Shown: positions 2,910 to 45,849 of the stretch, in pieces
Layout: every line of letters starts with the position of its first letter
Position numbering within the stretch: the stretch's first letter is position 1
Origin: an uncultured delta proteobacterium
Lineage (GTDB): Bacteria > Myxococcota_A > Polyangia > Fen-1088
Direction: 5' to 3'
NCBI GenBank assembly: GCA_963796685.1
Contig: CAWCMR010000014.1
Location: forward strand, 107,189 to 171,188
DNA length: 64,000 nt
The notes under the pieces: generated by a model
The model's database searches: none
What the model was told of the DNA's origin: nothing
The model's input: the letters and a program-made list of their open reading frames with translations, nothing else
Translations under genes and position numbers: made by a program

Positions 2910-4742
2910 CTACTTGCAGACGAACGTCGTGACCGTCGCCTTCGGCAGCGAAGCGCTGAACGTGCCGCCGGTTACGGTGACCGCAGTCCCTGCCTTGAGG
3001 TCGTCGGTCGAAGATGTCACGTTCGGCGTGCACGACGCTGGCGCTGTCCCGCCGGAGATGGCGATCGGCACCGTTGCATCAGCGGTGCCCTTGTTGATGG
3101 CCACGACGACCACGTTGCTCGATCCCGTATAGGCGGAGAGCAAGAGATCCGCGTTGGAATTCCCCGTAATATCCACCCGCTTGTAGCCTGGTCGTACGAA
3201 CTTGCTGTAATTACCAATCGTGTAATGGCGCTTGGTATCGGTTCCGTCCTGCAGCCATATGCCTTCGTTGTCGTTGGTGCCGTTGCTGGACGCGGACATC
3301 GGCTGGTACCACCAGTAGAGCCAGGCTGACGCATTGCCGGTCACGAGCGCGGAGTGAATCCACCCTGCCACCGCGACGCCGTTGTTGATATCACTGCTCG
3401 GCCCCTGTTCCGCCCACCACTTCACGCCGGACATCTCAGTCTGCCAGACCTCTTTCTTTGCCGCGGTAACATCGCTTGGCCAGGCGTAAGCCTGCTGCGA
3501 GTCGTACTCGTGCACCCCGACGATGTCGAAAGCGGCCCAGGCCGTCGCATCTGCAGCCAGGAAGTGGCCGTAGTCGTATCCTCCGCCCGTCGAGCACTTG
3601 CTGGCGCAACCAGTAGCGGTGAGAGTATTGCCGAAGCAACCGCAGCCCAGCGGGTCCGAGCTGTTCTTGCCCGAAACATCAGGACCGGCCGATACATTGG
3701 ACCACTGGTGGTTCCATTCTGATGCTTCCGCTGCAATGACCTTGATGTTCTTTGCTTGGAGCTTGGGGCCTGCCACCTTTACCCAAGCCACAAACTCGGT
3801 GGCGGTAAAGGCCATCGTATCGTAGTCGCCGTTGCACGGGTCGCTCTTGCCACACGACACGAAGTCAGGCTCATTCGCGATGGACATGGCGTACAGGCCG
3901 GTGCTCGATGCCCAGCTGGCTATGGTCGTTGACCACGAATCGTAACAGCTCGATTTCAGGTGTCCGCCGTAGGTGCCGTCGGTATTGGTGCTGTCCCTGC
4001 AATTGGCAGGCGCCATCCAGACCGACCCAATGGCTTTGAAGTCACTGCCCGCAGCGCTCTTCGCTGCGGAGATATTGCTCGACTCCCCGCTGTTATAGGA
4101 GTTGCCATCGCTACCCATGCCGGTACGCAGAATGGACAAGCCGATCCCGCTCGTCGGGCTGAAGAGTGAGGACGTTTTGGAGGACGGTATGGGTTGCCAA
4201 TTATCGTTCATGCCAAACCCTTGGATGGTTTGCTCAGTCTGATCGAGCTGCACCGTCACGCCCGTCGAGGTCGAGCCGCCAGCGCCCGAGTCGACGCCAG
4301 AGCTGGTGCCGCCATCGCCGCTACCGCCGACGGCCGAAGAACCTCCTTTGCCCCCTGTCGAGCTTCCGCCCGCATTGCTCCCGCCAGCACCGCTGCCGCC
4401 AGCTGCCGAACCGCCCTTGCCACCAGCTGCACTTCCGCCAGCGTTGTTACCGCCGGCCTGCGAACCGCTGCTGCCTCCGGTCGCGCTGCCGCCAGCCTGC
4501 GAACCACCGGCCCCGCTCGTTGTTGTACCACCGGAATTGGCGCCGCCGGAGCCGCTGCTGCCACCCTTCGCCGTTGTTCCGCCTTGGCCGTTGCCACCAT
4601 TGCCGGTGCTTCCGCCGTTTCCGCCGGCGCCACCTGAGGAGGTGCTGCCGCCCGTTCCCGAGGAGCCCCCGTTGTTAGAGCAGTTCACCATTACCATGGC
4701 GAGGACGGCGGGCCCGACTAGCAGCTGGCACGTGCGACGCAT
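2910..4742 (-). CDS. GH30 glycoside hydrolase (xylanase-like), probable lipoprotein with Gly/Ser linker
   Basis: QTIQGFG, GIGLSILR, acid/base IANEPD, nucleophile VWQTEM, NYSKFVRPGYKR, C-terminal beta-sandwich ending VTTFV. Confidence 0.88.
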   Translation of the reverse strand: MRRTCQLLVGPAVLAMVMVNCSNNGGSSGTGGSTSSGGAGGNGGSTGNGGNGQGGTTAKGGSSGSGGANSGGTTTSGAGGSQAGGSATGGSSGSQAGGNNAGGSAAGGKGGSAAGGSGAGGSNAGGSSTGGKGGSSAVGGSGDGGTSSGVDSGAGGSTSTGVTVQLDQTEQTIQGFGMNDNWQPIPSSKTSSLFSPTSGIGLSILRTGMGSDGNSYNSGESSNISAAKSAAGSDFKAIGSVWMAPANCRDSTNTDGTYGGHLKSSCYDSWSTTIASWASSTGLYAMSIANEPDFVSCGKSDPCNGDYDTMAFTATEFVAWVKVAGPKLQAKNIKVIAAEASEWNHQWSNVSAGPDVSGKNSSDPLGCGCFGNTLTATGCASKCSTGGGYDYGHFLAADATAWAAFDIVGVHEYDSQQAYAWPSDVTAAKKEVWQTEMSGVKWWAEQGPSSDINNGVAVAGWIHSALVTGNASAWLYWWYQPMSASSNGTNDNEGIWLQDGTDTKRHYTIGNYSKFVRPGYKRVDITGNSNADLLLSAYTGSSNVVVVAINKGTADATVPIAISGGTAPASCTPNVTSSTDDLKAGTAVTVTGGTFSASLPKATVTTFVCK

Positions 4743-5101
4743 AGATTCCGACACAAAATTGCCTGTTCGCATGCGCGAAGTTTGGGCCAGAAGGCAATGC
4801 GGAGTCAAGAGATCATGCGAGCTCAAGAGTGCGCATAAAATTACTATGATCTCCGTGCTTTTGGCAGGGATGGCGCGTTGCGGATCACCCTCTCGGAGCG
4901 TAAGAACAAACCGTCAAGAAATGGGAAGTGGCATCCAGAAATGCGAAAAATGCGTTGCGCACGGGCAAGGTGAGAAAAAATCGAAACTAACTTATGAAAA
5001 CGCGATCTGAGATCGCCCTAATGGGCATATAAACAGCGCAGTCGGTATGTCGCGCGCGGTGAAGCCACGGGCGAGCGGATGTTCTAAATAAGGATAGTGC
5101 A

Positions 5102-7027
5102 ATGAACACAGCACGGAAATCGATCACCAGCGTCGGAATCGCGGTCCTCTTCGCGGCTTGCAGCTCAGGCGGGGGCCAGGGCGGGGGCTCTGGCGGCAGC
5201 CAGAGCGGCGGCTCGGGCGGAAACGAGAGCGGGGGCTCGGGCGGTAGCCAGAGCGGGGGCTCGGGCGGCAGCCAGAGCGGGGGCACGAGTGGCAGCCAGA
5301 GCGGTGGCTCGGGTGGCAGCCAGAGCGGGGGCTCGGGCGGCAAGGGGAGCGGTGGCTCGGGCGGTAGCCAGAGCGGGGGCTCGGGCGGCAACGCGAGCGG
5401 TGGCACCACTGCGAAGGGCGGAACGAGCGGCGGCGGCGCGGGCGGCAGTGCAGCCGGCGGCACGACGAGTAGCACGGGTGGCTCCAGCACGCCGAGCGGC
5501 GGCACGACCGGCCCGGGTGGCAGTCAAAGCGGTGGCGCGACAGGCGCGGGTGGTGATTCGTCGCCCGGTAGCGGCGGGACCACAACCCCCTCGACGGTCC
5601 TTGTAACGTCTGCTAGCGGCGCCTACTGGAAGACCGGTACATGGACCGAGGTGACCAGCGGGAGCGCCACGGTTACGGTCAATGATACCTCGACCGCGCA
5701 GAACTGGGAAGGCTTCGGCGGCGCCTTCAACGAATTGGGGTGGACCGTTCTGACCTCGGCCACCATGCAGACTCAGGCCTTGACCTTGCTCTTCAGCCCC
5801 ACCGATGGTGCAAACTTCACCATGGGGCGAATCCCGATGGGAGCGAGCGACTACGCCACCAGTCGCTACACCGACGACGACGGTTCGTGGACCGACGTCA
5901 ATGCCAGCAGCGGCACGCGCCAGCCTGCGGACACGTCCATGGCAAATTTCTCGATCGATAGAGACAAAAAGAATCTGATCCCCTACATCAAAGCGGCGAT
6001 GGCGATCAAATCCGATATTCGTTTCTGGGCCAGTCCGTGGACGCCACCGGTGTGGATGAAGAGCGGGTACAATTCCAACCAAGCTGGCAGCATGTCCGGC
6101 TGGAAGCCGTCATTCTACGATGGCGGCAACATGAGCAGCGACTCTGGAACCTTGACGGCCTACGCCCAGTACTACACGAAGTTCGTGCAAGGGTACAAGG
6201 ATCAGGGCATCAACATCGAGCTCGTCTCGCCCCAGAACGAGCCAGGTTATGAGCAGAACTACCCGTCGTGCCTCTGGGACAAGACCACCTACGTCAGCTG
6301 GGTCAAGACTCTCGGGCAGGCCATGAGCAGCATCGGCGTCAAGGTCATGCTGGGTACGCTGTCGAATAATGGCGACACTGTTGAAGGCGTCAAGAGGACA
6401 GACCTTGACATCGCGTCTGCAGTGCTAGCCGATAGCACCGCGAAGGGCTTGGTCACGGTCGTCGGCGTCCAATGGGGCATACTCGACGCGGTGAACAAAG
6501 GTCAGACGTTCCAAGGGCTGCCCGTCTGGGCCACCGAGCACAAGTGCGGCAACTATCCGTGGAATCCCTCTGGCTCTCCTACGTACAACAGCACCCAGGC
6601 GCCCAACGATCAGGCGTACGGGGTGGAGAGCTGGGGCTACATCCGAGACGCGATCACAAAGGGAAAAGTGACGGCCTACAACGCCTGGAACATGGTCCTC
6701 GACAAGTCCGGCCTGGGCATCGACACGTCTCGTGATTGGAAACAGGATGCGTTGTTGGTGGCGAATTCGGGAAGTGTTACCGCAACGCCCGCCTACTATG
6801 TCTTCCGTCACGTCTCGCAGTACGTGCAGCCCGGCGCCACCGTGGTTGGCACCTCCGGCGGCGATGCAGTCGCCTTCAAGAACCCGGACAACAGCCTGGT
6901 TGCGGTCGTCTACAACTCTGGCGCCGAGAACAAGAGCTTCATCGTCAAGATTGGTGGCAAGATGCTCCAGTTCGACATGCCCGGTGACAGCAAGGGCGCC
7001 TGGGCCACCATCAAGTACGGCCCGTAA
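5102..7027 (+). CDS. GH30 glycoside hydrolase (glucosylceramidase/beta-1,6-glucanase-like) lipoprotein
   Basis: Lipobox LFAAC; WEGFGGAFNE, RIPMGASDY, ASPWTPPVWMK, PQNEP, WATE, WNMVLD, HVSQYVQPGA, AFKNPD. Confidence 0.9.
   Translation: MNTARKSITSVGIAVLFAACSSGGGQGGGSGGSQSGGSGGNESGGSGGSQSGGSGGSQSGGTSGSQSGGSGGSQSGGSGGKGSGGSGGSQSGGSGGNASGGTTAKGGTSGGGAGGSAAGGTTSSTGGSSTPSGGTTGPGGSQSGGATGAGGDSSPGSGGTTTPSTVLVTSASGAYWKTGTWTEVTSGSATVTVNDTSTAQNWEGFGGAFNELGWTVLTSATMQTQALTLLFSPTDGANFTMGRIPMGASDYATSRYTDDDGSWTDVNASSGTRQPADTSMANFSIDRDKKNLIPYIKAAMAIKSDIRFWASPWTPPVWMKSGYNSNQAGSMSGWKPSFYDGGNMSSDSGTLTAYAQYYTKFVQGYKDQGINIELVSPQNEPGYEQNYPSCLWDKTTYVSWVKTLGQAMSSIGVKVMLGTLSNNGDTVEGVKRTDLDIASAVLADSTAKGLVTVVGVQWGILDAVNKGQTFQGLPVWATEHKCGNYPWNPSGSPTYNSTQAPNDQAYGVESWGYIRDAITKGKVTAYNAWNMVLDKSGLGIDTSRDWKQDALLVANSGSVTATPAYYVFRHVSQYVQPGATVVGTSGGDAVAFKNPDNSLVAVVYNSGAENKSFIVKIGGKMLQFDMPGDSKGAWATIKYGP
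5186..5400 (+). repeat. In-frame 24-bp tandem repeat encoding an (SQSGGSGG)n linker
   Basis: About 9 degenerate copies of agccagagcgggggctcgggcggc. Confidence 0.85.
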
Positions 7028-7054: not shown

Positions 7055-9385
7055 TCACTTCGATGAAGACGCCCAGCCCACCCCGGCTGGGCGTTTCGCT
7101 TTTCTCACGGTCGATTTGTGCGGAGGCATTCCGCCTGATTGCCACTCACGCCCTCTGGAGACACTCGACCTCGCATACCTGACGCGGCAGCGATGTGAAC
7201 TTCCGCCTTTCCTTTGCTGCCTACCACGTCCCCTGTTCGAGCGCGCTGTGCGCATTTCCAGGCCCTGCGTCCGTAGTTCGGTTGCCGATATCATGAGCGG
7301 AGAAGAAAGAATGCAGCAGAGCCAGAAGGTACCCAGGTCCTGGGTGGTCCAACTTCCCGATACCCCGGTGCGATAGACATGTGCGATCGTTCCGGTTGAG
7401 GTCAAAATGACAATGTGAAGCGTATTGTCTGCGGTGACCACGCAGTCCGGTGACGACGCTGGGACCGAATTGCCTGACAGCTCCCAGGCTGAGAATGTGG
7501 TTTGGTCGACCGAGGCTGTCGTCCAGTCGGTCTGGGAATAGGCGACATACAGCTTCCCGCCTGCGACCGCCGCAGTGTACCGCCTGTAATCGCTCGTCGT
7601 CGGGTCGCTATGGTTGCACAAAGTCGGTGAGTAGCTATACGTTGCTGATGCTGGTGGGAGCCAATACGTATTCGGTTGCCAGCCCGATCCGAACCCCGAA
7701 GTGTGGTCAAAATAGACCATCCCATTGCCGGTAAAGGCCACCATCTCGGCATGGTTAGGATTATCGCCATTTCCTTGCTGATATGCGATATCCGGCGCAG
7801 ACGTCAGTGCGTAGTCCACCGTGGGAGTGTAGCCGCCATACGTGGTGCCATCGAAGGTAACCCAGCTTGGCATTCCAGACGCCGGCACGGCTGCCATCTG
7901 GTACGTAACATCGGTACTGTTGGGCCAAGCGGCAATGGACACGCCGATGTAACCGAAGGTCGAAGGGCTATTCGTGGACAGCTCTCGAGTGAACGCGTTG
8001 TAGCTCGTGCCAAATCCAGTGGCATGCATGTACGAGCCTGTTGGGCTTGCCCCGGATGCCACGATGTGAACCGTGTTCGAATTGCTGCTGCAGTCCAAAT
8101 CCGAACGAGCGTCGAGCTTTGTGGCATCGAGAGCCGGGATGCTTGCCCAGGAGCCAGAGCTGCTGCCGCTGATGACCCGACGATAGATCTTCTGACCACT
8201 GCTAGCGAAAACCTCGACGCTTGACAAATCGGGACTCGTAGCGCATGGCCCGCTGATAAACGCATTCTTGGCACAGGTTCCACTTCCACCCGAGCACCCG
8301 TTCCCGGTCACGCAGTCGGCGTCAGTTGTACAAGATGTCTTGCACGCGGTGGTGGATGCACAGACAAGATTGCCAGCACAAGATGTGGTCGTGCCTGGCA
8401 GGCAGGCGCCGGCACTACAAGCACCTTGCGGCACAAGAGTCGTTCCCGTCGGCTGCGACTGCGTGTTCGTCAGGGTCGTACAGCTACCCACTCCACAGGG
8501 CGTCGTTGGCCATGTGCACTGACCGTTCGCCGCACCGGTGCAGCTGCCGCTGCAATCAGAGCTGGTGCCTGTGCAACTCCCATGTCCCGCATGGGGTGCA
8601 CCAGTCACAGGCTTGCAGGCGCCAGTTTCGCACGACTCGCACGTGCCAGCGCACGCACGATCACAACAGTGTCCATCCGATGAGCATGACAACCCTGATG
8701 CGCAGGTTGCGGAGGACTGACAGGTCTGGCCCGGAGCGCCCGTACCTCCGCTTCCGCCAGATTCGCCACCGGTGCCGTTTCCACCAGATCCGCTTCCACC
8801 AGATCCGCCACCGGTGCCGCTTCCGCCAGATCCGCCACCGGTGCCGCTTCCGCCAGATCCGCCACCGGTGCCACCAAGGGGCGCATCGAGGGCGTCGGCA
8901 TTGGGTGCGTCGATCGGACCAGCTCCGCCGGTGCCGGGTACGCCCCCAGCGCCCGCCTCGGAAGACGTCGTCGGAGGACCATCGAGCGGCACGTCGGCCA
9001 TCAAGTCGATGCTGCCATCCCATCCCCAAGCCCCGCCCGTCCCTTGCCCGCTGTCCATCGAGGCCACGCCTCCCGTGCCAAGACCGGTTTCTCGAATCGC
9101 GATGTCGTGGCCTGCTTGGGAATCGAGCGCAGTGGCATCCAGGCCACCGGAAGGGGGTGGAACCTTGCAGGTCTTGCCGTCCGTCGACTCACAGCAAATG
9201 TCGTTCGCTCCGCAAACGGAGCCCCACGGACAGCTCTTGTCATCTTTGCAGTGGTAGGTTTGGGTAGGATCGATCTTCGGGTCGTTGAAACACCCGAAGC
9301 TGAGAATGGAAAGCAGGGCGGCCAATGCCAGCCCCAGGCGATCCCGGCTGCAAGACGACTGTGAGGAAGATGACGAGAAAGACAT
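7055..9385 (-). CDS. Large Cys-rich lipoprotein with Gly linker and probable C-terminal beta-propeller
   Basis: ATG 9385 overlaps the upstream stop (TGATG); LSFGC lipobox; DGHCCDRACAGTCESC repeats; the native C-terminus may be DLGTF at about 7325. Confidence 0.7.
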   Translation of the reverse strand: MSFSSSSSQSSCSRDRLGLALAALLSILSFGCFNDPKIDPTQTYHCKDDKSCPWGSVCGANDICCESTDGKTCKVPPPSGGLDATALDSQAGHDIAIRETGLGTGGVASMDSGQGTGGAWGWDGSIDLMADVPLDGPPTTSSEAGAGGVPGTGGAGPIDAPNADALDAPLGGTGGGSGGSGTGGGSGGSGTGGGSGGSGSGGNGTGGESGGSGGTGAPGQTCQSSATCASGLSCSSDGHCCDRACAGTCESCETGACKPVTGAPHAGHGSCTGTSSDCSGSCTGAANGQCTWPTTPCGVGSCTTLTNTQSQPTGTTLVPQGACSAGACLPGTTTSCAGNLVCASTTACKTSCTTDADCVTGNGCSGGSGTCAKNAFISGPCATSPDLSSVEVFASSGQKIYRRVISGSSSGSWASIPALDATKLDARSDLDCSSNSNTVHIVASGASPTGSYMHATGFGTSYNAFTRELSTNSPSTFGYIGVSIAAWPNSTDVTYQMAAVPASGMPSWVTFDGTTYGGYTPTVDYALTSAPDIAYQQGNGDNPNHAEMVAFTGNGMVYFDHTSGFGSGWQPNTYWLPPASATYSYSPTLCNHSDPTTSDYRRYTAAVAGGKLYVAYSQTDWTTASVDQTTFSAWELSGNSVPASSPDCVVTADNTLHIVILTSTGTIAHVYRTGVSGSWTTQDLGTFWLCCILSSPLMISATELRTQGLEMRTARSNRGRGRQQRKGGSSHRCRVRYARSSVSRGREWQSGGMPPHKSTVRKAKRPAGVGWASSSK
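7069..7105 (+). terminator. Rho-independent terminator after the GH30 gene
   Basis: Stem ACGCCCAGCC / GGCTGGGCGT followed by TTCGCTTTTCT. Confidence 0.65.
8749..8870 (-). repeat. 27-bp tandem repeat encoding (GTGGGSGGS)n
   Basis: ccgcttccgccagatccgccaccggtg repeated about 4 times. Confidence 0.8.
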
Positions 9386-10191
9386 CAGAACGCTCCTGTC
9401 AGCACGGCACCTGCAGTGCCAGGCGCAACGGTTGGTACCAGGGCAACGCTGGACATTGAATCTCGGCCGGAATGCCAACCGAGATAGTAGAGCAATGACC
9501 CACCGGCCAGGCAGGCCGCGCCCGCGCCGTAGCTGACCCAACCGAGGGTCTTGTAGCTCTTGCGTGAGGTATCGGTGTCGCGGTTGAAGTTGTCGGGTTT
9601 CTGGAGATCGCTCGTCATGCTGTTGACCTTGAGGTTCAAGATCACGCCGGTGAGCAACGCGGCGGCACCGACGGAAGCCACCGTGATGCCAGCGATGCGC
9701 AGTCCCGAGCCCGTCTTGCCCTCGATTTGCCCTGGTTGCCGCGCCACGACCCCGGCCTCCGGCGAGATAGGGACCTGGATAGGCTGCGCTTGCGCGACGG
9801 GGGTCGAAACGACGGCAGGAGGCGGCGAAACGACGGTAGGGGGAGGCTCGCTCTTGGGGAGATATGATTCGCAGGCCTCGATGCGCTTTTGCGCCACCGC
9901 CTTTTCTTCAGGCGTGAGCTTTTCCCCCTTGACCAGGTATTCGCGGAATCGGGCGATGGCATCCTCGTATTTGCGGTTCTGCTCGAAGCATCGTCCCTGG
10001 TTGAAGATATAGGTGATGTCGTTCGTGTCGACATAGAGCTCGGCCAGGAGGTCCACGCCTTTGGCCGGATCGCCGGACAGGCAGGCTTTCTTGGCCATGC
10101 GCTCCTTGGCTTGTCTGCTGGCCGCAGAAGCGGGCTCCGGCAACGACACCAGAATCGCGAGTATCACCAACAACATCCCTAGGCAACGCAT
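9385..10191 (-). CDS. Secreted TPR protein with C-terminal hydrophobic segments (myxobacterial type)
   Basis: Signal peptide; TPR-like YIFNQGRCFEQNRKYEDAIARFREYL; Pro linker; ends GAVLTGAF. Confidence 0.75.
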   Translation of the reverse strand: MRCLGMLLVILAILVSLPEPASAASRQAKERMAKKACLSGDPAKGVDLLAELYVDTNDITYIFNQGRCFEQNRKYEDAIARFREYLVKGEKLTPEEKAVAQKRIEACESYLPKSEPPPTVVSPPPAVVSTPVAQAQPIQVPISPEAGVVARQPGQIEGKTGSGLRIAGITVASVGAAALLTGVILNLKVNSMTSDLQKPDNFNRDTDTSRKSYKTLGWVSYGAGAACLAGGSLLYYLGWHSGRDSMSSVALVPTVAPGTAGAVLTGAF

Positions 10192-10353
10192 GGTCTTGAC
10201 CTCATCTTGAATATTCTCGTCGCTTCACGGTCCGCGAATTTGTCGCAGCATGAACAGAAATGGCGCGCAAGTCAAACAGCGGAGACCGCCGGTGACTCGC
10301 AACGATGTCGCGGGATCGCGGTACGTCGTCCCTCGGTGGCTCCATCCGGTGTC

Positions 10354-11544
10354 TCAGTGCAAGGCTGGGACGGTGGCGTCCGCGTAGCGGGCCGGATCCT
10401 GAATGAATCGATCGCGGCACAGATCGCTGCAAAAATAGTATGTCTTGCCCTGGTACTCGGAGCGGGCGGCGGCATGGTAGCGGTGGATCTTCATTCTGCA
10501 CACCGGGTCTTGCACCTCGACGTCGGCCTCTGCGCGGGTGGGTAGCACCTTCGCTGCTCCATCGGTGGCGACGAGCGCATGCAGATAGGAGACCAAGTCG
10601 TCGACCTCGGGCTCCGTCAGGTAGTCGCGGTACGAGGGCATGAGCGGGTCGTAGCCGGAGACGACCTGGTCGCCGGGATCGAGGATGGACCGCCGCAGGT
10701 AAGCGTCATCGGCCGAGACGGTGGCTCCGCCCACCATCCGCACTGTCCGGCCGGCCAAGCCGTCGAGCGAAGGCCCGGTCTTGAGGTCGGCGTGGCATCC
10801 TCGACAACCCAGGGTTTGAAACAAGCCCAGCCCGCGCGAGGCTGCGGACGTTTCGGGCTTCTTCTCGTTCGACTTGGTGACGCCTTTTGCCATCGCGGCG
10901 GCGTCCGCGTCGAGCATGGTGGCATCGGCCACCAGGCGCAGAACGGCTTTGTCGTCCAGGCTGCCGTAGACACCGCGGACTTGCCCGCGACGGTCGACCA
11001 GGAAAAGGAGCGACGTGTGCAGGATCGGCTCTCGCGGAATATTGGTGTGCTCGAACGGCACCTTCATGGCTTGGGCGAATTCGGTTATCTGGGCCGCAGG
11101 GGGACGTAGGAGCAGCCAGCGCGGATCGGCGTTCCACTTGGCGGCGTAGGCCTTCAGCACCTCCGGCGTGTCGTGGTCGGGATCGATCGAGAACGACACG
11201 AAGCGAAGGTCCGCCGACGGTATCGCCCTTCTGAGCAGGCTCATCTTGGCCGTGATGATCGGACACATGGTCGTGCACCGGGTGTAGATGAAGTCGGCGA
11301 TCCACACGTGCCCGCGCAAGGCCGACTCGTCCATCACCTGCCCCTCGGTATCGACGAAGGCGAAGGGAGGTACGTCCCCCAGAGTGGGCAAAGATCGGCG
11401 GGCATGCGGTACCGGATGCGCGATCCGAATCGCGCGCGAGACTACGAGCGCGATCCCCAAGAGCGCTGCAAAGCCGCAGGCCCCCAAGGCCAGGAGACTC
11501 TTCGGCGCGACCCGCCTGGGCCGGGACGGCGAGGGGTGCTTCAG
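10354..11544 (-). CDS. SCO1/SenC - cytochrome c - YHS fusion protein
   Basis: N-terminal TM; SCO FIYTRCTTMCP plus ILHTS; heme site CRGCH with distal LMPSY; YHS DPVCRM...YYFCSDLCRDRF. Start uncertain: CTG 11544 overlapping the upstream TGA, or GTG 11643. Confidence 0.88.
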   Translation of the reverse strand: MKHPSPSRPRRVAPKSLLALGACGFAALLGIALVVSRAIRIAHPVPHARRSLPTLGDVPPFAFVDTEGQVMDESALRGHVWIADFIYTRCTTMCPIITAKMSLLRRAIPSADLRFVSFSIDPDHDTPEVLKAYAAKWNADPRWLLLRPPAAQITEFAQAMKVPFEHTNIPREPILHTSLLFLVDRRGQVRGVYGSLDDKAVLRLVADATMLDADAAAMAKGVTKSNEKKPETSAASRGLGLFQTLGCRGCHADLKTGPSLDGLAGRTVRMVGGATVSADDAYLRRSILDPGDQVVSGYDPLMPSYRDYLTEPEVDDLVSYLHALVATDGAAKVLPTRAEADVEVQDPVCRMKIHRYHAAARSEYQGKTYYFCSDLCRDRFIQDPARYADATVPALH

Positions 11545-12743
11545 CGTCGTTGCCGTCGCCGTCGCCTTCGCAGCATGACCAACGCGCCGAGCATCGCGGT
11601 GCTGACGAACCAAGAAGCTCCGCCGCTGGCAGAGATGTCGCACCCGCCCGACCCGGTCTTGGCGGGCGCGCCCATCCCAGTGCTGGCCGATGTACCCGTC
11701 GAGCCGCTCGTTCCGCCCGCGCTGCCACCCGAGTCCGTCCTGCCTCCTGAGCCCGTCAGCCCTCCGGCTCCGGCGCCCCCGCCACCCTCGGTGGTGCCGC
11801 CCGTCCCCGCGCTGCCTCCTGAGCCCGATCGCCCTGCGGAGCCAGCACTCCCGCCCTCGCCAATGGTACCACCGGAACCTGGGCCACCGCCCGAGCCGGC
11901 CGTGCCCCCAGCGCTGTTGCTGCCGCCTTTGCCGGTGGTGCCGCCGGAACCCGCGCCACTGCCCGAACCGGCCGTGCCCCCAGCTCCGCTGCCGCCGCTT
12001 CCACCGGCCCCGATGCTCGAGCCACCACCCCCACCCGAGCCGCCGCCGGCTCCGCTGGCGTCGGAGAGACCGGTCGATGCATCTTTTGCAACCGACGCAT
12101 CCGCCGAATCGTTACCGCCGTCGGGGGACGATCCTGTCGAGATGTCCGCGCAGTGATGATAGTAGCAATCGTTGGCCGGGTGATCGGTCATCACCATGAT
12201 GACCTGAAGGGTGCACGGCTGCGCGCTGGTGCAAGTCGCGCTCTTCGGAATCGTGACCTGGAATGTTTGATTGCCGCTCTGTTGCGTCGTCGCGGTCGAG
12301 CCGGCCGGCAAGCCATCGGCGATGACGGGCTGGGTCGGCGACCAGACTGGATCCTTCATGATGGCGGGCGTGCAATTGGTGCCTGCCTGGGCCTGCGGAT
12401 CGGGCAGCGACGAAAGGGTGTGCGTCGAGCTCGCTCCCTCGACCAGTGCGATGCGAAACCAGCCCGGGTGCGTGACGGTCACCGTGATGGAGACGGGAAC
12501 CGTCTGACCGGATTGAAGCACGGTCACCGTCTTGGTCGGAGTGCCGGCAGAGTCGCCCAAGGCGGTGTTGGGCTGTGCCGCGCAAGGTCCGTTCTTCTGC
12601 GGACCACCGACGGAATCTTGCGACATCCAACTCGCCGGAGAGTCGATCTTGAAGTGGGCGTGCGCCGTGGATGGTATCCACGCCGCGCCAAAGGCCAACC
12701 ACGGCACGAACGAATACTTCCGAGTCCAAGCCCGACACGCCAT
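11541..12743 (-). CDS. LPMO-like His-brace protein (SCE4755-family-like) with MYXO-CTERM-like anchor
   Basis: Signal peptide ending AHA gives mature N-terminal His (HFKIDSP); second His in THPGWFRIAL; CTLQV...CYYHHCADI; Gly linker; GGCDI-TM-RRRRRR tail. Confidence 0.8.
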   Translation of the reverse strand: MACRAWTRKYSFVPWLAFGAAWIPSTAHAHFKIDSPASWMSQDSVGGPQKNGPCAAQPNTALGDSAGTPTKTVTVLQSGQTVPVSITVTVTHPGWFRIALVEGASSTHTLSSLPDPQAQAGTNCTPAIMKDPVWSPTQPVIADGLPAGSTATTQQSGNQTFQVTIPKSATCTSAQPCTLQVIMVMTDHPANDCYYHHCADISTGSSPDGGNDSADASVAKDASTGLSDASGAGGGSGGGGGSSIGAGGSGGSGAGGTAGSGSGAGSGGTTGKGGSNSAGGTAGSGGGPGSGGTIGEGGSAGSAGRSGSGGSAGTGGTTEGGGGAGAGGLTGSGGRTDSGGSAGGTSGSTGTSASTGMGAPAKTGSGGCDISASGGASWFVSTAMLGALVMLRRRRRRQRR

Positions 12744-12813: not shown

Positions 12814-13944
12814 TCACCCACCTACGCGGGCGAGAAACTGCTGCCGTCGATCCTCGCTCCAGCGCGCGCAATAGGCCGGCCTCTGCTCGACAATGCGCTT
12901 GGTGCAAAGCGTGCACGAGGGTTGGCAGGGGTTGATGGCCTCCACGACCTCGCCGCGCGCTTTGCGTGGCCACAAGGGATCTGCAAAGAGCACGCGGCCC
13001 AGCCCCACCAGATCCGCCTTGCCATCGCGAAGCGCGGACTCGGCGATGGCCGGGTCTTGGATGCGACCGGCGGCAATGACCGGAATATGGGGAAGGGCCT
13101 GCTTGATCGCGTGGGCGAAGGGGACCAAGAAGGCCTGGTTGCGATCGTCCGCCAGGTAATTCGGCGAGGCGAACGAGTCGTAGCAGCCGGCCATGACCGA
13201 GAGATAGGCGACGCCCGCCTGGGCCAGCCGCTTGGCGAAGGGCAGGGTGTCGGCCAGGGTCAGGCCCCCGGGAACGTATTCGTCGGCCAAAAAGCGATAG
13301 CCCACGGGATAGTCATCGCCCACCGCTGCGCGGACTGCGCCGACGACGTCGAGGGGAAAGCGCATTCGCCGTTCGGCGTCGCCGCCGTAGGCATCCTGGC
13401 GCAGGTTGGTTCGCGGGGATAGAAATTGGGGTAACAGATAGCCGGTGCCGCCGTGCAGCTCCACGGCGTCGAACCCGGCCTGCCTCGCGCGAAGGGCACC
13501 GGCCGCGAAAGCGGTGAGCGTCGTTTCGATGTCGGTCTGCTCCATGGCCTTGGGCACCGCTCCCCACGTGGGAAAAGCGGACGGCGCCACCCGATCGGGA
13601 CGCTTGGCATATCGTCCGGCGTGATGGATCTGCAACACCGCCTTGGCGCCGCCGCCTCGGATGGCCGAGGCCAGGCGCGCAAGCCCGGCAACGAAGCGAT
13701 CGTCCTGGTGTTCGTCGGTGGTCAGCAGCGTGCGCGGATTGCCGAGGCCGCGCGGCTCGACCGTCGTGTTCTCCACCACCACCATGCCCACACCCGACTC
13801 GGCCATCTCGGCATAGTAGTCGAGCACGAGATCGTTCACCTGGTGATCCGGGTCGGGGTACGCCAGGTACATGGGCAGACTGACCAGGCGGTTTTCGAGC
13901 CGCAGCTGGCCGATGCGCAGGGGAGTGAAAAGAAGGTTCGTCAT
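12814..13944 (-). CDS. NADH:flavin oxidoreductase (OYE family) with C-terminal Cys cluster
   Basis: LFTPLRIG...LENRLV, LQIHHAGR, ELHGGTGYLLPQFLSPRTNLRQDAYGG, GRVLFADP, CQPSCTLC...C. Confidence 0.9.
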   Translation of the reverse strand: MTNLLFTPLRIGQLRLENRLVSLPMYLAYPDPDHQVNDLVLDYYAEMAESGVGMVVVENTTVEPRGLGNPRTLLTTDEHQDDRFVAGLARLASAIRGGGAKAVLQIHHAGRYAKRPDRVAPSAFPTWGAVPKAMEQTDIETTLTAFAAGALRARQAGFDAVELHGGTGYLLPQFLSPRTNLRQDAYGGDAERRMRFPLDVVGAVRAAVGDDYPVGYRFLADEYVPGGLTLADTLPFAKRLAQAGVAYLSVMAGCYDSFASPNYLADDRNQAFLVPFAHAIKQALPHIPVIAAGRIQDPAIAESALRDGKADLVGLGRVLFADPLWPRKARGEVVEAINPCQPSCTLCTKRIVEQRPAYCARWSEDRRQQFLARVGG

Positions 13945-17095: not shown

Positions 17096-17152
17096 CCAAA
17101 AGCTGTCCACACCCGGGATAGCGCTCGTCCACCACGGTCGCTATCTTGGTGA

Positions 17153-17284
<132 letters not shown>

Positions 17285-17478
17285 GACGAAGTCCGGTGCC
17301 GCAAGCATGCCGGGCTACGGCGGCTCGCCGCAGCACCACCGCGATCAAGTGGGCTAGACGCCGTCTCGCGCAACGGCCGACGCCCCAGGATCGGCGGCTT
17401 CGTCGTGGTCGCGTTGGCAACACATTTTCTGCCCGCGGTACTTTGCACCTCCGGGCACAAGGACTAGTCTTCGCCCAA

Positions 17479-18402
17479 ATGCACGTGTCTCGCATGCTCC
17501 GAGGTCTCCTCCCCAGCCTCCTGGTCGCCAGCATGGTCGTGTGGATCAGCGCGTGTGCGAAGAAGGCCCCACCCGGTTCGCCGGCAACCACCGCCTTGTC
17601 CGGGATCGTCAAGCCACCAACCGACAAGCCATCGACGGAAGGCGATGGTTGGCCGCCCGGTATCGAGCCCGACAAGCTGGACCCGTTCAAGCGCAAGGTC
17701 TTCGACGATGTGATCAACCGCGAGTCATCGGCGTGCGGCAAAGGGCACAGCCTGCTCCACTCGATCAGGCAAGACGGCGCCTGCCGGGCTTCCTTCTATG
17801 CCGTCCGCTACGTCGCCCGTTTGGCGGATGCGGGATTCTCCGAGCCTGAGATCGGCGAGAAGCTCACACAGCGTTTTCGCGCCCCGCGCGTCCCCTACAT
17901 CGACGTGTCCCAGGCACCCAGCAAGGGCGGGCCATCCGGTCGCGTGACCATCGTGGAGTTCGCCGACTACGAGTGCGCGCATTGCAAAGCGGCGCAGAAG
18001 GTGATGCAGCCGCTTCTGGACAAGTACCCCGGCCTCGTTACCCTGTATTTCAAGCACTTTCCCATCAGCTCGAACAATGCCTTCAACGCCGCTCAAGCCG
18101 CAGCGGCGGCACAGAAGCAGGGTAAGTTCTGGCAGCTCAGCGACAAGATTTGGGAAAACTCGGAGAATCTGTCGCCAGCCCTGCTGGAGAGCTTGGCCAA
18201 GGAGATTGGCTTGGATTTTTCACGCTGGTATAGCGATGTCGGATCGGAAGAGGTTCGGGCGCGTGTGCAACGCGACAGGGCCGAGGCACGCGCCCTGGGG
18301 ATCCGCAGAACGCCCGCCATCTTCATCAATGGTCGCAGGTATACCGACGAGCCCGACCTTCCCGGTCTGACGGATTGGATCGACGAAGAGCTGGGGCGTT
18401 GA
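17479..18402 (+). CDS. DsbA-family thioredoxin-fold lipoprotein
   Basis: ISAC lipobox; VTIVEFADYECAHCK; FKHFPI; GIRRTPAIFINGRRY. Confidence 0.88.
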   Translation: MHVSRMLRGLLPSLLVASMVVWISACAKKAPPGSPATTALSGIVKPPTDKPSTEGDGWPPGIEPDKLDPFKRKVFDDVINRESSACGKGHSLLHSIRQDGACRASFYAVRYVARLADAGFSEPEIGEKLTQRFRAPRVPYIDVSQAPSKGGPSGRVTIVEFADYECAHCKAAQKVMQPLLDKYPGLVTLYFKHFPISSNNAFNAAQAAAAAQKQGKFWQLSDKIWENSENLSPALLESLAKEIGLDFSRWYSDVGSEEVRARVQRDRAEARALGIRRTPAIFINGRRYTDEPDLPGLTDWIDEELGR

Positions 18403-43383: not shown

Positions 43384-45783
<2,400 letters not shown>

Positions 45784-45849
45784 GGTGGTTAGAGCCCAAA
45801 GCTGGCACGGAGATGCGGGCAAAGAAAGGGAATTGGGCCGGCCCCTCGG

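What the first reader, a model, noticed from the sequence alone, without database searches (positions are those of the whole stretch)
10354..12743. His-brace LPMO-like surface protein coupled to a SCO-cytochrome c-YHS fusion: candidate copper-loading and electron-donor module
Seen: the protein at 11541-12743 has a signal peptide ending AHA, so mature residue 1 is His. It also has a second His (THPG), a YYHHCADI motif, a Gly linker and a MYXO-CTERM-like anchor. Its stop overlaps a gene fusing a TM helix, SCO (CTTMC plus His), a c-type heme domain (CRGCH with distal Met) and YHS. No cytochrome oxidase genes are in the window. Known: LPMOs bind Cu through an N-terminal His brace and need a reductant; SCO proteins deliver Cu; fungi supply LPMO electrons through the cytochrome domain of cellobiose dehydrogenase. 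Inference: one polypeptide may both load Cu onto and reduce a bacterial LPMO-like protein. Alternatively the His-brace protein is a Cu scavenger (Bim1/X325-like) that feeds SCO.
Basis: partly seen in the sequence, partly recalled or inferred. Interest (0 to 1): 0.85.

Follow-up and report, generated by a model that had tools for sequence, protein, structure and literature searches.

The report
LPMO-like copper protein with SCO-cytochrome partner
A soil myxobacterium encodes a surface-anchored copper protein built like a polysaccharide-cutting LPMO directly coupled to a membrane protein that fuses a copper chaperone, a cytochrome c and a metal-binding YHS domain, and this gene pair is kept together in one group of relatives, hinting at how such enzymes get their copper.

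Summary
Gene A (11541-12743, minus) is an SCE4755-family protein (NCBIfam NF043005, 100 bits against a cut-off of 75). Its signal peptide ends AHA|H. It has an LPMO fold (pLDDT 91.7; Z 11.5 to AA15 and AA10, 11.2 to X325) and invariant His1, His63 and Tyr166. A Gly-rich stalk and a MYXO-CTERM-like tail follow.

Gene B (10354-11544, minus) starts at a TTG that overlaps A's TGA. It encodes a TM helix, SCO (CxxxC plus His), cytochrome c (CxxCH plus Met) and YHS.

The pair is not unique to this genome. It recurs in 5 of 8 close genomic relatives and in 5 metagenome contigs, with different flanking genes. All of these fall in one well-supported subclade of the SCE4755 tree. Outside that clade, 0 of 60 SCE4755 loci have an SCO or YHS gene within 5 kb. 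More distant copies of the fusion sit beside other genes, none of them cox genes. The genome keeps a separate SCO in its cox operon.

Best reading (about 0.45): B is a dedicated periplasmic copper-loading and redox-poising factor for A before A is exported. Steady electron supply to a surface enzyme fits the topology poorly. The reverse flow (copper scavenging) is not excluded. No mechanism was tested directly.

The parts
12657..12743 (-). Gene A signal peptide (residues 1-29), ending AHA before His30
   Evidence: Translation. The MACR/MSCR start is conserved in L046 and L048. Ala at -1 is at least 90% conserved and His1 is invariant.
12099..12656 (-). Gene A LPMO-like copper domain (mature residues 1-186) with His1, His63 (THPG), Tyr166 (YYHHCADI) and four invariant Cys
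   Evidence: NF043005 scores 100.4 bits against a cut-off of 75. AF2 model: pLDDT 91.7. LPMO fold matches. The profile alignment to AA15, AA13 and AA10 places His63 and Tyr166 on their copper ligands.
11655..12098 (-). Gene A Gly/Ser/Thr/Ala-rich linker (about residues 216-363)
   Evidence: Translation. Homologues range from 160 to 377 aa, mainly through this region.
11544..11654 (-). Gene A C-terminal sorting signal: GGC motif (Cys368), hydrophobic helix and Arg-rich tail (MYXO-CTERM-like). The stop codon is 11541-11543.
   Evidence: Translation. The tripartite architecture matches the abstract of PMC11980579. The TIGR03901 HMM was not significant. JGI names homologues 'MYXO-CTERM domain-containing protein'.
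10354..11544 (-). Gene B: SCO-cytochrome c-YHS fusion, 396 aa. Its TTG start overlaps gene A's TGA by 4 nt.
   Evidence: The same overlap or a gap of at most about 30 nt is seen in L046, L049, L051-L053, L103, L104 and L106.
11437..11499 (-). Gene B N-terminal transmembrane helix (about residues 16-36), preceded by a basic segment
   Evidence: Translation. A hydrophobic N-terminal segment is present across the family alignment.
10978..11370 (-). SCO1/SenC domain (residues 59-189) with C90xxxC94 and H176
   Evidence: Pfam PF02630 scores 86.8 bits. C90 and C94 are invariant and H176 is at least 90% conserved. The closest solved chains are Bacillus SCO proteins 4hde and 1xzo, E about 1e-22.
10576..10839 (-). 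Class I c-type cytochrome domain (residues 236-323) with C247RGCH251 and M302
   Evidence: Pfam PF00034 scores 24.0 bits against a cut-off of 21.3. Invariant residues. The closest solved chain is 1w2l, deposited as 'cytochrome oxidase subunit II', E 2.7e-12.
10375..10515 (-). YHS (TRASH-type) metal-binding domain (residues 344-390) with C349, M351, C372 and C376
   Evidence: Pfam PF04945 scores 60 bits. Invariant residues.
10277..10291 (-). Terminator-like hairpin about 63 nt after gene B's stop (weak evidence)
   Evidence: 4 such sites in the region against 2.2 expected from shuffles.

Best explanation
Genes A and B form a two-gene copper module.

Gene A:
- A is exported by Sec. Signal-peptide cleavage exposes His1 of an LPMO-superfamily domain.
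- That domain binds one Cu through a His brace (His1 amino group and side chain, plus His63) with Tyr166 in the axial position.
- The domain sits on a long Gly-rich stalk. It is probably sorted to the cell surface through its MYXO-CTERM-like tail.

Gene B:
- B is anchored in the inner membrane by one helix.
- Its SCO, cytochrome c and YHS domains lie in the periplasm. A c-type haem fixes that side.

Proposed mechanism (inferred, not shown):
- B is a dedicated maturation factor for A.
- The YHS and SCO sites take up copper.
- The haem domain sets the Cu(II)/Cu(I) state or the thiol state of SCO.
- Copper is passed to the newly exposed His brace of A in the periplasm, before A leaves as a folded holo-protein.

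Shown here: the domain identities, the conserved ligands, the LPMO fold, translational coupling, and conservation of the pair in one clade.
Inferred: the direction of copper flow, the role of the haem, surface localisation, and any catalytic activity of A.
For: 1. Identity of A.
- NF043005 scores 100.4 bits against a cut-off of 75.
- The AF2 model has pLDDT 91.7 and pTM 0.88.
- All 12 Foldseek hits with E <= 1e-3 are LPMOs.
- VIA-align gives Z 11.5 to AA15 5msz, 11.4-11.5 to AA10 (2bem, 2ben, 4a02, 5ftz) and 11.2 to X325 6ibi. Model residue 1 aligns to the first residue of the deposited LPMO chains.
- The PDB profile search aligns HPG-His63 and Tyr166 to the corresponding motifs of AA15 (E 3.8e-6), AA13 and CelS2.
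- H1, H63 and Y166 are invariant in 64 sequences.

2. Identity of B.
- Pfam finds SCO, cytochrome c and YHS.
- All metal and haem ligands are invariant or nearly so in 77 sequences.

3. Coupling of the two genes.
- The start and stop codons overlap by 4 nt.
- The pair recurs in L046, L049, L051, L052 and L053. These are 5 of the 8 genomic relatives whose A domain is at least 64% identical.
- It also recurs in L103-L107, which are 5 of the 13 multi-domain metagenome relatives of B.
- Flanking genes differ between loci.
- B has diverged to 54-75% identity while staying adjacent.

4. Tree of the A domain.
- All 9 full-length SCO-adjacent A genes fall in one clade of 12 rows, with SH-aLRT 100 and a stem of 0.69.
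- The clade carries its own insertions.

5. B is not the cox SCO.
- A second SCO lies beside COX1 and a COX2 on contig C25.
- More distant copies of the fusion sit beside other copper-handling or secreted proteins. These are a YHYH protein in L102, a CusF-SCO fusion in L113 and a YtkA-like protein in L109.

6. The question is open in print. [quoted passage not shown]
Against: - No computation here tests copper transfer.
- The pair is missing in 3 of 8 close relatives (L047, L048, L050). Their genomes gave no full-length fusion with this query, though their completeness is unknown.
- The pair is absent from the rest of the SCE4755 family: 0 of 30 loci within 1.5 kb and 0 of 60 within 5 kb. Most family members therefore mature without such a partner.
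- LPMOs are routinely loaded with free Cu(II) in vitro (methods passage of PMC9040799), so a chaperone is not chemically required.
- Many close relatives of B lack the YHS domain, so that domain is dispensable.
- Model coordinates are not exposed, so His-brace distances could not be measured.
- The MYXO-CTERM HMM was not significant, so surface sorting is inferred from architecture only.
Confidence: 0.45

Rival explanations
1. Copper flows the other way. A is a non-catalytic, surface-tethered His-brace copper scavenger, comparable in role to fungal X325/Bim1. B receives the copper. Its haem domain reduces Cu(II) on A to Cu(I) so that the thiolate and Met sites of SCO and YHS can take it, for onward supply to periplasmic or membrane cuproenzymes.
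For: - The fold is as close to X325 (Z 11.2) as to AA15 and AA10 (Z 11.4-11.5).
- A is anchored on a stalk, as Bim1 is held by a GPI anchor (passage of PMC10952591).
- Some loci carry metal-related neighbours. L104 has an MbnB/TglH/ChrH-family gene upstream and a NikR-like gene overlapping the end of B. L113 has a CusF-SCO fusion. L109 has a YtkA-like protein.
- No conserved glycoside hydrolase or other enzyme partner was found for the family.
- The review PMC10952591 notes that His-brace variants found in clusters with copper transporters seem to serve copper transport.
Against: - By sequence, the nearest solved relatives are catalytic LPMOs: AA15, AA13 and AA10, with the axial Tyr motif conserved.
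- If A is exported to the outer surface, it cannot touch an inner-membrane-anchored periplasmic protein.
- The genome already has a cox-linked SCO.
- No outer-membrane transporter is conserved beside the pair.
- Whether A has the extra Asp ligand of X325 could not be tested.
Confidence: 0.22
2. B is both the copper loader and the physiological electron donor of an active monooxygenase. A stays tethered near the inner membrane or in the periplasm. There it acts on envelope or nascent glycans, and the cytochrome c domain of B delivers the priming electron to the His-brace copper. This would be functionally analogous to the cytochrome domain of cellobiose dehydrogenase feeding fungal LPMOs.
For: - SCO plus cytochrome c is the core kept beside A, even in relatives of B that lack YHS. 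L107 matches only residues 50-324. Nine YHS-less entries share a longest-contig length with entries (indirect evidence).
- The cytochrome domain's closest solved relative is deposited as the cytochrome c domain of a cytochrome oxidase subunit II (1w2l, E 2.7e-12). The text read describes such a domain in caa3 oxidases as an efficient donor to the CuA copper site.
- Other SCE4755 genes have different c-type cytochrome neighbours. One is a small CNTCH lipoprotein after the SCE4755-like gene in L109, with a CxxxxCH homologue in L050. Another is a divergent 179-aa lipoprotein with a CxxCH motif (CVTCH in 10, CVHCH in 1) in 11 of the 30 best family loci. Going by the handles, those 11 appear to come from a single genus.
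- A Streptomyces LPMO works on peptidoglycan of its own wall (PMC9040799).
Against: - The C-terminal signal has the architecture that sends Myxococcus proteins to the cell surface (abstract of PMC11980579). That location is out of reach of B.
- Across 60 other SCE4755 loci, only 7 have a CxxCH gene among the four nearest genes. No background rate was computed.
- The 11 loci with the CxxCH lipoprotein appear to belong to one genus, so they count as about one event.
- The complex prediction gave no verdict, which is not evidence either way.
Confidence: 0.15
3. B acts on A as a thiol-disulfide oxidoreductase rather than a copper donor. The thioredoxin-fold SCO domain, re-oxidised or re-reduced through its own haem, forms or repairs the disulfides of the Cys-rich A domain, or guards it from oxidative damage.
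For: - A has four invariant Cys: C25, C142, C148 and C169.
- SCO proteins have a thioredoxin fold and can act as thiol-disulfide oxidoreductases (passage of review PMC6696091).
- In L108 the SCO-cytochrome c gene follows a DsbE/AhpC-like thioredoxin gene instead of an SCE4755 gene.
Against: - The copper-binding His of SCO (H176) and the YHS Cys/Met motif are conserved. That is unnecessary for pure thiol chemistry.
- The other SCE4755 members have the same Cys but no such partner.
- A DsbA-like gene already lies in the window at 17146-18402.
Confidence: 0.08
4. The two genes are neighbours with no functional link. They would be two exported proteins kept together by descent within a narrow lineage.
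For: - All loci with the pair belong to one clade.
- Three close relatives lack the pair.
Against: - The genes keep a 4-nt overlap or a gap of at most about 30 nt while the surrounding genes differ in every locus examined.
- B has diverged to 54% identity while staying adjacent.
- Both proteins handle copper.
Confidence: 0.08

Closest known systems
SCE4755 family polysaccharide monooxygenase-like protein (NCBIfam NF043005, type 'hypoth_equivalog')
   Same: Gene A scores 100.4 bits against a cut-off of 75. It shares the family's N-terminal His after the signal peptide, the HPG His and the Y-x-x-C-A-D motif. The family was found in 74 of 401 sampled genomes of the phylum.
   Different: The window's clade is a long-branched subgroup (stem 0.69, SH-aLRT 100) with its own insertions. 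It is the only part of the family found next to an SCO-cytochrome c gene. A full-text search for 'SCE4755' returned 0 papers.
Catalytic LPMOs: AA15 (Thermobia domestica, 5msz), AA10 (CBP21 2bem, SliLPMO10E 5ftz, CelS2 4oy7), AA13 (4opb)
   Same: They share the beta-sandwich fold, with Z 10.5-11.5 for 5msz, 2bem, 5ftz and 4opb and Z 9.7 for 4oy7, over 132-142 aligned residues. The N-terminal His, the second His and the axial Tyr/Phe motif all align.
   Different: Sequence identity is 10-22%. Pfam LPMO_10 scores 22.3 bits, just under its cut-off of 23. No substrate or activity is known. A has a lipid-anchor-type C-terminus on a Gly-rich stalk instead of a carbohydrate-binding module.
X325 / Bim1 (Cbi1) LPMO-like copper-binding proteins of fungi
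   Same: They share an LPMO-like fold (Z 11.2 to 6ibi), a His brace and membrane tethering. [quoted passage not shown]
   Different: They are fungal and GPI-anchored. X325 has an Asp as a fourth ligand, and whether A has one could not be tested. Their partner is the Ctr1 transporter, not an SCO-cytochrome fusion.
Sco-dependent maturation of extracytoplasmic cuproenzymes (Streptomyces Sco to GlxA and cytochrome oxidase; Bacillus and Bradyrhizobium Sco to CuA)
   Same: Each uses a membrane-tethered thioredoxin-fold CxxxC...His copper chaperone that loads an exported copper enzyme (PMC9040799 passage; PMC6696091 passage; PMC3603459 abstract in the listing).
   Different: Here the chaperone is fused to a c-type cytochrome and a YHS domain, and its gene is translationally coupled to an LPMO-like gene. 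For the Streptomyces LPMO, the copper source is stated to be unknown.
Sco-cytochrome c fusion proteins (Banci et al. 2011, J Biol Inorg Chem 16:391)
   Same: From recall only: a bacterial Sco domain fused to a cytochrome c domain, in which the haem domain exchanges electrons with the Sco site.
   Different: I saw only the citation in reference lists, not the paper. As recalled, no YHS domain and no LPMO-like partner are involved there.
Cellobiose dehydrogenase cytochrome domain as LPMO electron donor (fungi)
   Same: This is a functional analogy only: a haem domain that reduces the LPMO copper (recalled; not read here).
   Different: The CDH domain is a haem b protein fused to a flavin dehydrogenase and is secreted with the LPMO. 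B carries a c-type haem, is fused to copper chaperone domains, and is membrane-anchored in the periplasm. The two are not homologous.

Membership tests
SCE4755 family (NCBIfam NF043005) | Whole-protein HMM score at or above the curated cut-off (75 bits) | tested here: met
   100.4 bits, E 8.7e-29, residues 23-201 on profile positions 2-145 of 146. It is the single copy in the genome.
LPMO superfamily (His-brace copper monooxygenases) | N-terminal His exposed by signal-peptide cleavage | tested here: met
   AHA|H in the sequence. His1 is invariant and Ala at -1 is at least 90% conserved in 64 sequences. Model residue 1 aligns to the first residue of the deposited LPMO chains. Cleavage itself is predicted, not shown.
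LPMO superfamily (His-brace copper monooxygenases) | Second brace His and axial Tyr/Phe at the homologous positions | tested here: met
   His63 (HPG) and Tyr166 (Y-H-H-C-A-D-I) align to the PHIG / E-Y-R-N-C-A-D-I motifs of AA15, and to the equivalent motifs of AA13 and CelS2. Both residues are invariant. The assignment of those motifs as copper ligands is from recall.
LPMO superfamily (His-brace copper monooxygenases) | Immunoglobulin-like beta-sandwich LPMO fold | tested here: met
   pLDDT 91.7. All 12 Foldseek hits with E <= 1e-3 are LPMOs. Z is 11.5 with 142 residues aligned at rmsd 3.4 to 5msz.
LPMO superfamily (His-brace copper monooxygenases) | T-shaped His-brace geometry around copper, and oxidative cleavage of a polysaccharide | not testable with these tools
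   Model coordinates are not exposed and copper is not an offered ligand. Activity needs an assay.
Pfam LPMO_10 (PF03067, AA10) | Score at or above the gathering cut-off (23 bits) | tested here: not met
   22.3 bits, E 2.4e-4, covering residues 44-173 only. A whole-genome search with PF03067 found nothing at E <= 0.001. Gene A is therefore not filed as AA10.
X325/Bim1 LPMO-like copper binders | His brace completed by an Asp carboxylate in the fourth position; non-catalytic | tested here: inconclusive
   The fold match is Z 11.2. Invariant D114 aligns to an Asp also present in AA15, so it does not discriminate.
SCO1/SenC (PF02630) | HMM above cut-off, CxxxC plus a distal His, and a membrane anchor | tested here: met
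   86.8 bits against 22.8. C90 and C94 are invariant and H176 is at least 90% conserved. An N-terminal hydrophobic helix is present. The closest solved chains are Bacillus Sco proteins, E about 1e-22.
Class I c-type cytochrome (PF00034) | CxxCH haem attachment motif, distal Met and HMM above cut-off | tested here: met
   24.0 bits against 21.3; PF13442 scores 23.1 against 27 and is not met. C247, C250, H251 and M302 are invariant.
YHS / TRASH domain (PF04945) | HMM above cut-off with the Cys motif | tested here: met
   60 bits against 30.3. C349, M351, C372 and C376 are invariant.
MYXO-CTERM sorting signal (TIGR03901) | HMM match; tripartite signal of a Cys motif, a TM helix and an Arg-rich tail | tested here: inconclusive
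   TIGR03901 gave no hit at E <= 1 on the last 49 residues. The best hit was the tail of an MXAN_6652-family MYXO-CTERM protein, E 0.055. The three-part architecture described in PMC11980579 is visible in the sequence, and JGI names many homologues MYXO-CTERM proteins.
cox-operon SCO (cytochrome oxidase assembly) | Located with cytochrome oxidase subunit genes | tested here: not met
   No COX1 or COX2 hit lies on contig C14. A different SCO (C25:2038530-2038883) lies beside COX1 (C25:2036782-2038113) and COX2 (C25:2035073-2035273).

The most novel reading that the evidence does not exclude
The SCO-cytochrome c(-YHS) protein is a single-polypeptide maturation and redox partner of a bacterial LPMO-family enzyme. 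It inserts copper into the His brace, and its c-type haem also delivers the priming electron. This would make it the first dedicated metallochaperone, and a bacterial membrane-bound counterpart of the CDH cytochrome, for this enzyme class. In this reading A acts on envelope or nearby glycans while still within reach of B.
Probability: 0.13. Interest if true: 0.85.

Novelty: new variant of a known kind. Interest (0 to 1): 0.6.

Why it matters
How LPMOs and other His-brace proteins obtain copper inside living cells is an open point. A 2022 paper on a Streptomyces LPMO says so explicitly and guesses at Sco.

This clade offers a natural genetic pairing of an LPMO-fold protein with an SCO chaperone that carries its own haem and a second metal site. 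That makes the question testable with two recombinant proteins.

The pairing also draws attention to a large, uncharacterised bacterial branch of the LPMO superfamily. It was found in 74 of 401 sampled genomes of the phylum, and by sequence it is closest to animal AA15 enzymes. Finally, it extends the known range of SCO clients beyond cytochrome oxidase.

My searches found no paper on this family or this pairing. The library lacks most subscription-journal papers.

Tried and rejected
- Complex prediction of B (residues 45-396, alignment A2) with the A domain (alignment A1): no verdict, score 0.00 against a mark of 0.32. This is not evidence either way.
- RNA evidence for co-transcription: no RNA holder was listed. 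There were only three DNA runs with a small share of the words (0.06).
- Earlier notes of this scan: nothing by place or by words.
- A conserved partner for the whole SCE4755 family: clustering the four nearest genes of 60 loci gave no neighbour family in more than 5 loci.
- Cytochrome c as a general neighbour: a CxxCH gene is among the four nearest genes in 7 of 60 loci. I computed no background rate, so I do not claim enrichment.
- Polysaccharide context. GH30 genes lie 3.3-7.5 kb from the pair in the window. L052 has a GH28 gene, and L047 has an arabinofuranosidase gene but lacks B. That is 3 of the 14 loci whose neighbours I annotated. No statistic was run, and I do not use it as support.
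- Shared 'longest contig' lengths. Eighteen entries have the same longest-contig length as an entry, which suggests further contigs carrying both genes. I matched these by eye. It is indirect evidence, may overlap the loci already counted, and is not counted in the tallies.
- The MYXO-CTERM HMM on the C-terminus was not significant.
- The 268-aa gene downstream (9385-10191) as a third member of the module: it has no Pfam hit and no tblastn match in L046-L059, so I rejected it.
- The flavin oxidoreductase upstream (12814-13944) as part of the module: it is present only in L049, and there on the opposite strand, so I rejected it.
- One search was an empty script.

Full report
**1. What is in the sequence**

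On the minus strand, an ORF from ATG 12743 to TGA 11541 gives a 400-aa protein, gene A.
- It begins MACRAWTRKYSFVPWLAFGAAWIPSTAHA|HFKIDSP, which is a basic n-region, a hydrophobic core and an AxA site followed by His.
- After about 186 residues comes a Gly/Ser/Thr/Ala-rich stretch of about 150 residues.
- The end reads GGC-DISASGGASWFVSTAMLGALVML-RRRRRRQRR.

The next ORF, gene B, starts at a TTG whose last two bases, with the base that follows, form A's stop codon (TTGA). It runs to 10354 and encodes 396 aa. A terminator-like hairpin lies about 63 nt after B, but such sites are only about twice as frequent here as in shuffled sequence.

The region has 62-66% G+C like its surroundings. The upstream gene (12814-13944) is an Old-Yellow-Enzyme-type flavin oxidoreductase. 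The downstream gene (9385-10191) has no Pfam match.

**2. Gene A**

Family assignment:
- NCBIfam places A in NF043005, 'SCE4755 family polysaccharide monooxygenase-like protein', at 100.4 bits against a cut-off of 75.
- Pfam LPMO_10 reaches 22.3 bits, just under its cut-off of 23.
- The protein database holds 216 relatives at E <= 1e-3 among the candidates scored. Many are named MYXO-CTERM proteins by JGI and some are named SCE4755-family by NCBI.

Conservation: in an alignment of 64 sequences (29-89% identical to the window's domain), His1, His63, Tyr166, Cys25/142/148/169, Lys21, Arg68, Asp114, Gln151 and Met156 are invariant. The residue before His1 is Ala in at least 90%.

Structure:
- AlphaFold2 on this alignment gives a confident beta-sandwich (pLDDT 91.7, pTM 0.88).
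- All 12 Foldseek matches with E <= 1e-3 in the PDB are LPMOs of families AA10, AA9, AA11 and AA15, with TM 0.44-0.57.
- VIA-align gives Z 11.5 to AA15 (5msz; 142 residues, rmsd 3.4, 22% identity), Z 11.4-11.5 to AA10 chains and Z 11.2 to the copper-binding protein X325. These rows are tied, and model residue 1 aligns to the first residue of the deposited chains.
- A profile search of PDB sequences finds AA15 (E 3.8e-6), AA13 (6e-4) and the AA10 CelS2 (0.046). It aligns the HPG His and the Y-x-x-C-A-D-I Tyr of the family to the matching motifs of these enzymes. That those motifs hold the copper ligands is my recollection.

I conclude that A is a distinct bacterial branch of the LPMO superfamily with a complete His brace and an axial Tyr. 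It is not a member of AA10 by Pfam's own threshold.

Anchor: the C-terminus has the three parts described for MYXO-CTERM, namely a Cys motif, a helix and an Arg-rich tail. In Myxococcus that signal leads to cleavage by myxosortase and to cell-surface display (abstract of PMC11980579). However, the TIGR03901 model gave no hit at E <= 1.

**3. Gene B**

- Pfam finds SCO1/SenC (residues 59-189, 86.8 bits), Cytochrom_C (236-323, 24.0 bits against 21.3) and YHS (344-390, 60 bits).
- In 77 relatives (38-83% identical), C90 and C94 of CxxxC, C247/C250/H251 of CxxCH, M302, and C349/M351/C372/C376 of YHS are invariant. The SCO His176 is at least 90% conserved.
- A basic segment and a hydrophobic helix precede the domains. 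Because c-type haem is attached outside the cytoplasm (established knowledge), all three domains face the periplasm.
- The closest solved SCO chains are from Bacillus (E about 1e-22). The closest solved cytochrome is 1w2l, deposited as 'cytochrome oxidase subunit II' (E 2.7e-12).
- Many close relatives have SCO and cytochrome c but no YHS.

**4. B is not the oxidase-assembly SCO**

- The genome (26 contigs, 88.6% complete) has three SCO-domain hits.
- One of them, at C25:2038530-2038883, lies beside COX1 (C25:2036782-2038113) and COX2 (C25:2035073-2035273).
- A cytochrome c match at C25:2034686-2034988 lies in an open frame of the same length (313 aa) as that COX2 match.
- No COX1 or COX2 hit lies on the window's contig.
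- A is the only SCE4755 gene in the genome, and no PF03067 match was found.

**5. Is the adjacency conserved? Genomes**

A scan of one genome per species returned 14 loci.
- Eight have an A domain at least 64% identical to the window's. Five of these (L046, L049, L051, L052, L053) carry a B homologue (54-75% identical) immediately downstream. Three (L047, L048, L050) do not.
- None of the six more distant loci has one (33-44% identity; L054-L059).
- In the genomes of L047, L048 and L050, a search with B found only separate SCO, cytochrome or YHS matches. Their completeness is not given.
- The flanks differ. The flavin oxidoreductase recurs only in L049, and there on the other strand. A PDZ gene recurs only in L046. 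Other neighbours are unrelated.

**6. Is the adjacency conserved? Metagenomes**

A scan with B kept 80 of 384 confirmed loci. Thirteen of them (L103-L115) match more than one domain. An HMM of the A domain gave these results:
- It hits directly upstream of B in L103, L104, L105, L106 and L107, where B is 62-71% identical. The hits in L105 and L107 are cut by the contig end.
- L108 (59%) has a DsbE/AhpC-like thioredoxin gene upstream instead.
- L109 and L110 (48%) have an SCE4755-like gene 3.4 kb upstream. It is followed by a small lipoprotein with a CNTCH motif, and a YtkA-like gene lies in between.
- L111-L115 (39-51%) show no SCE4755 gene in the DNA held. L112 and L114 have under 700 nt upstream.

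Where both genes are complete, they overlap by 4 nt or are at most about 30 nt apart.

**7. The wider families**

SCE4755 family:
- NF043005 was found in 74 of 401 sampled genomes of the phylum.
- The 30 best loci (1.5 kb either side) gave no tblastn match to B.
- I then fetched 5 kb either side of 60 places, which were 59 of the 65 over-cut-off places outside genus g4 plus one g4 place. All 60 contain the SCE4755 gene. None contains an SCO or YHS domain, and two have weak cytochrome matches more than 1.5 kb away.
- No neighbour family recurs in more than 5 of these loci.
- A CxxCH gene is among the four nearest genes in 7 of 60 loci.

The fusion family:
- Full-length copies 40-45% identical to B occur in four other sampled genomes, none of them next to an SCE4755 gene.
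- One is translationally coupled to a YHYH-domain protein (L102). One follows a protein with a MYXO-CTERM sorting signal (TIGR03901, 24 bits against a cut-off of 20), a Big_7 domain and weak, sub-threshold metzincin-type matches (L100). One metagenome copy is followed by a CusF-SCO fusion (L113).

So the fusion is a broader periplasmic copper-handling family with changing partners. It became attached to SCE4755 in one lineage.

**8. Tree**

- I built a maximum-likelihood tree of 65 A domains (171 columns, quick search). Twelve of 77 loci were left out for lack of a long HMM match, and partial genes were not entered.
- The nine SCO-adjacent genes and the three close genes without B form one clade of 12, with SH-aLRT 100 on a stem of 0.69 substitutions per site.
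- The three without B are scattered inside the clade.
- This fits one gain followed by losses or rearrangements, although the root is only a midpoint.
- The clade has its own insertions, near mature residues 33-35, 73-77, 105-109 and 120-124, and its own substitutions.

**9. Mechanism**

The conserved, translationally coupled pair of two copper-handling exported proteins argues for a functional link. I put that at about 0.85.

The direction is inferred. A would fold in the periplasm and then leave by the route used for MYXO-CTERM proteins, while B is fixed to the inner membrane. The simplest model is therefore that B metallates A in transit. The haem would keep copper or the SCO thiols in the right redox state. 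I recall such a role from Banci et al. 2011, which I saw only as a citation.

Continuous electron supply to a surface enzyme is hard to reconcile with that topology, unless A stays near the membrane. The reverse flow (scavenging) is supported by the equal fold similarity to X325 and by metal-related neighbours in a few loci. It faces the same topological objection.

The complex prediction returned no verdict, and no RNA data were found.

**10. Literature**

- A full-text search for 'SCE4755' found nothing.
- Searches combining Sco, cytochrome c, YHS, LPMO and myxobacteria found no paper on this pairing.
- PMC9040799 states that the copper source of a Streptomyces LPMO is unknown and may involve Sco (passage read).
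- PMC10952591 describes X325/Bim1 and other His-brace copper carriers (passages read).
- The library omits most subscription journals, so absence in print is not proven.

**11. Verdict**

- The LPMO-like assignment is already in NCBI's family library.
- The new element is the clade-specific, conserved coupling to an SCO-cytochrome c(-YHS) fusion.
- This is a new variant of a known kind (a chaperone-cuproprotein operon), with moderate to high interest and a clear experimental path.

Noticed in passing
window 43384-45822 (-): A P-type ATPase with an N-terminal YHS domain and an HMBD heavy-metal-binding domain. It is probably a copper pump. It lies about 32 kb from the pair. It is the second YHS domain in the window.
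   Followed up: partly
window 2910-4826 (-) and 5102-7027 (+): The second gene is a secreted GH30-type glycoside hydrolase (Glyco_hydro_30, 71 bits) with a long Gly/Ser-rich N-terminal linker. The first has only a weak GH59 match under the cut-off. They lie 3.3-7.5 kb from the pair. Glycosidases near the A gene also occur in L052 (GH28) and L047 (arabinofuranosidase B). No enrichment test was run.
   Followed up: partly
window 7055-9541 (-): A large Cys-rich, Gly-rich secreted-looking ORF (up to 828 aa) with no Pfam match.
   Followed up: no
L104:534-1388 (-) and L104:4005-4535 (+): In one metagenome contig, the pair is flanked by an MbnB/TglH/ChrH-family RiPP-modifying enzyme gene (318 bits). 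A NikR-like regulator gene overlaps the end of the SCO fusion by 4 nt. This is a possible link to a metal-binding peptide and to metal regulation.
   Followed up: no
L102:169-1191 (+) with L102:1188-2309 (+): A YHYH-domain protein (PF14240, 95 bits) is translationally coupled (4-nt overlap) to a distant SCO-cytochrome c fusion that has no Pfam YHS hit. It may be another client-chaperone pair.
   Followed up: no
L113:1327-2502 (+) and L113:2584-3375 (+): An SCO-cytochrome c-YHS fusion is followed by a CusF-SCO fusion gene.
   Followed up: no
L109:616-1071 (+) and L050:9111-9563 (+): A small lipoprotein of about 150 aa follows an SCE4755-like gene in both loci and ends W-I-x-C-G-A-x-N-N. The L109 copy has CNTCH, while the L050 copy has C-A-V-S-N-C-H instead. 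It has only a weak Cytochrome_CBB3 match (E 0.005).
   Followed up: partly
L018:830-1369 (-) and ten other loci among L016-L045: In 11 of the 30 best SCE4755 loci, a 179-191-aa lipoprotein (one copy cut at the locus end) with a single CxxCH motif (CVTCH in 10, CVHCH in 1) lies beside the SCE4755 gene. It is divergently transcribed in all but L033. Going by the handles, these loci appear to come from one genus. Its family was not determined.
   Followed up: no
L100:5351-6754 (+): A protein with a MYXO-CTERM sorting signal (TIGR03901, 24 bits), a Big_7 domain and weak, sub-threshold metzincin-type matches sits 22 nt upstream of a distant SCO-YHS fusion.
   Followed up: no
L057 (named Candidatus Binatus) and L059 (named Actinomycetota): SCE4755-like matches occur in records labelled outside Myxococcota: L057 at 43% identity and L059 marginal at E 6e-4. 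These may reflect transfer, binning error or chance.
   Followed up: no
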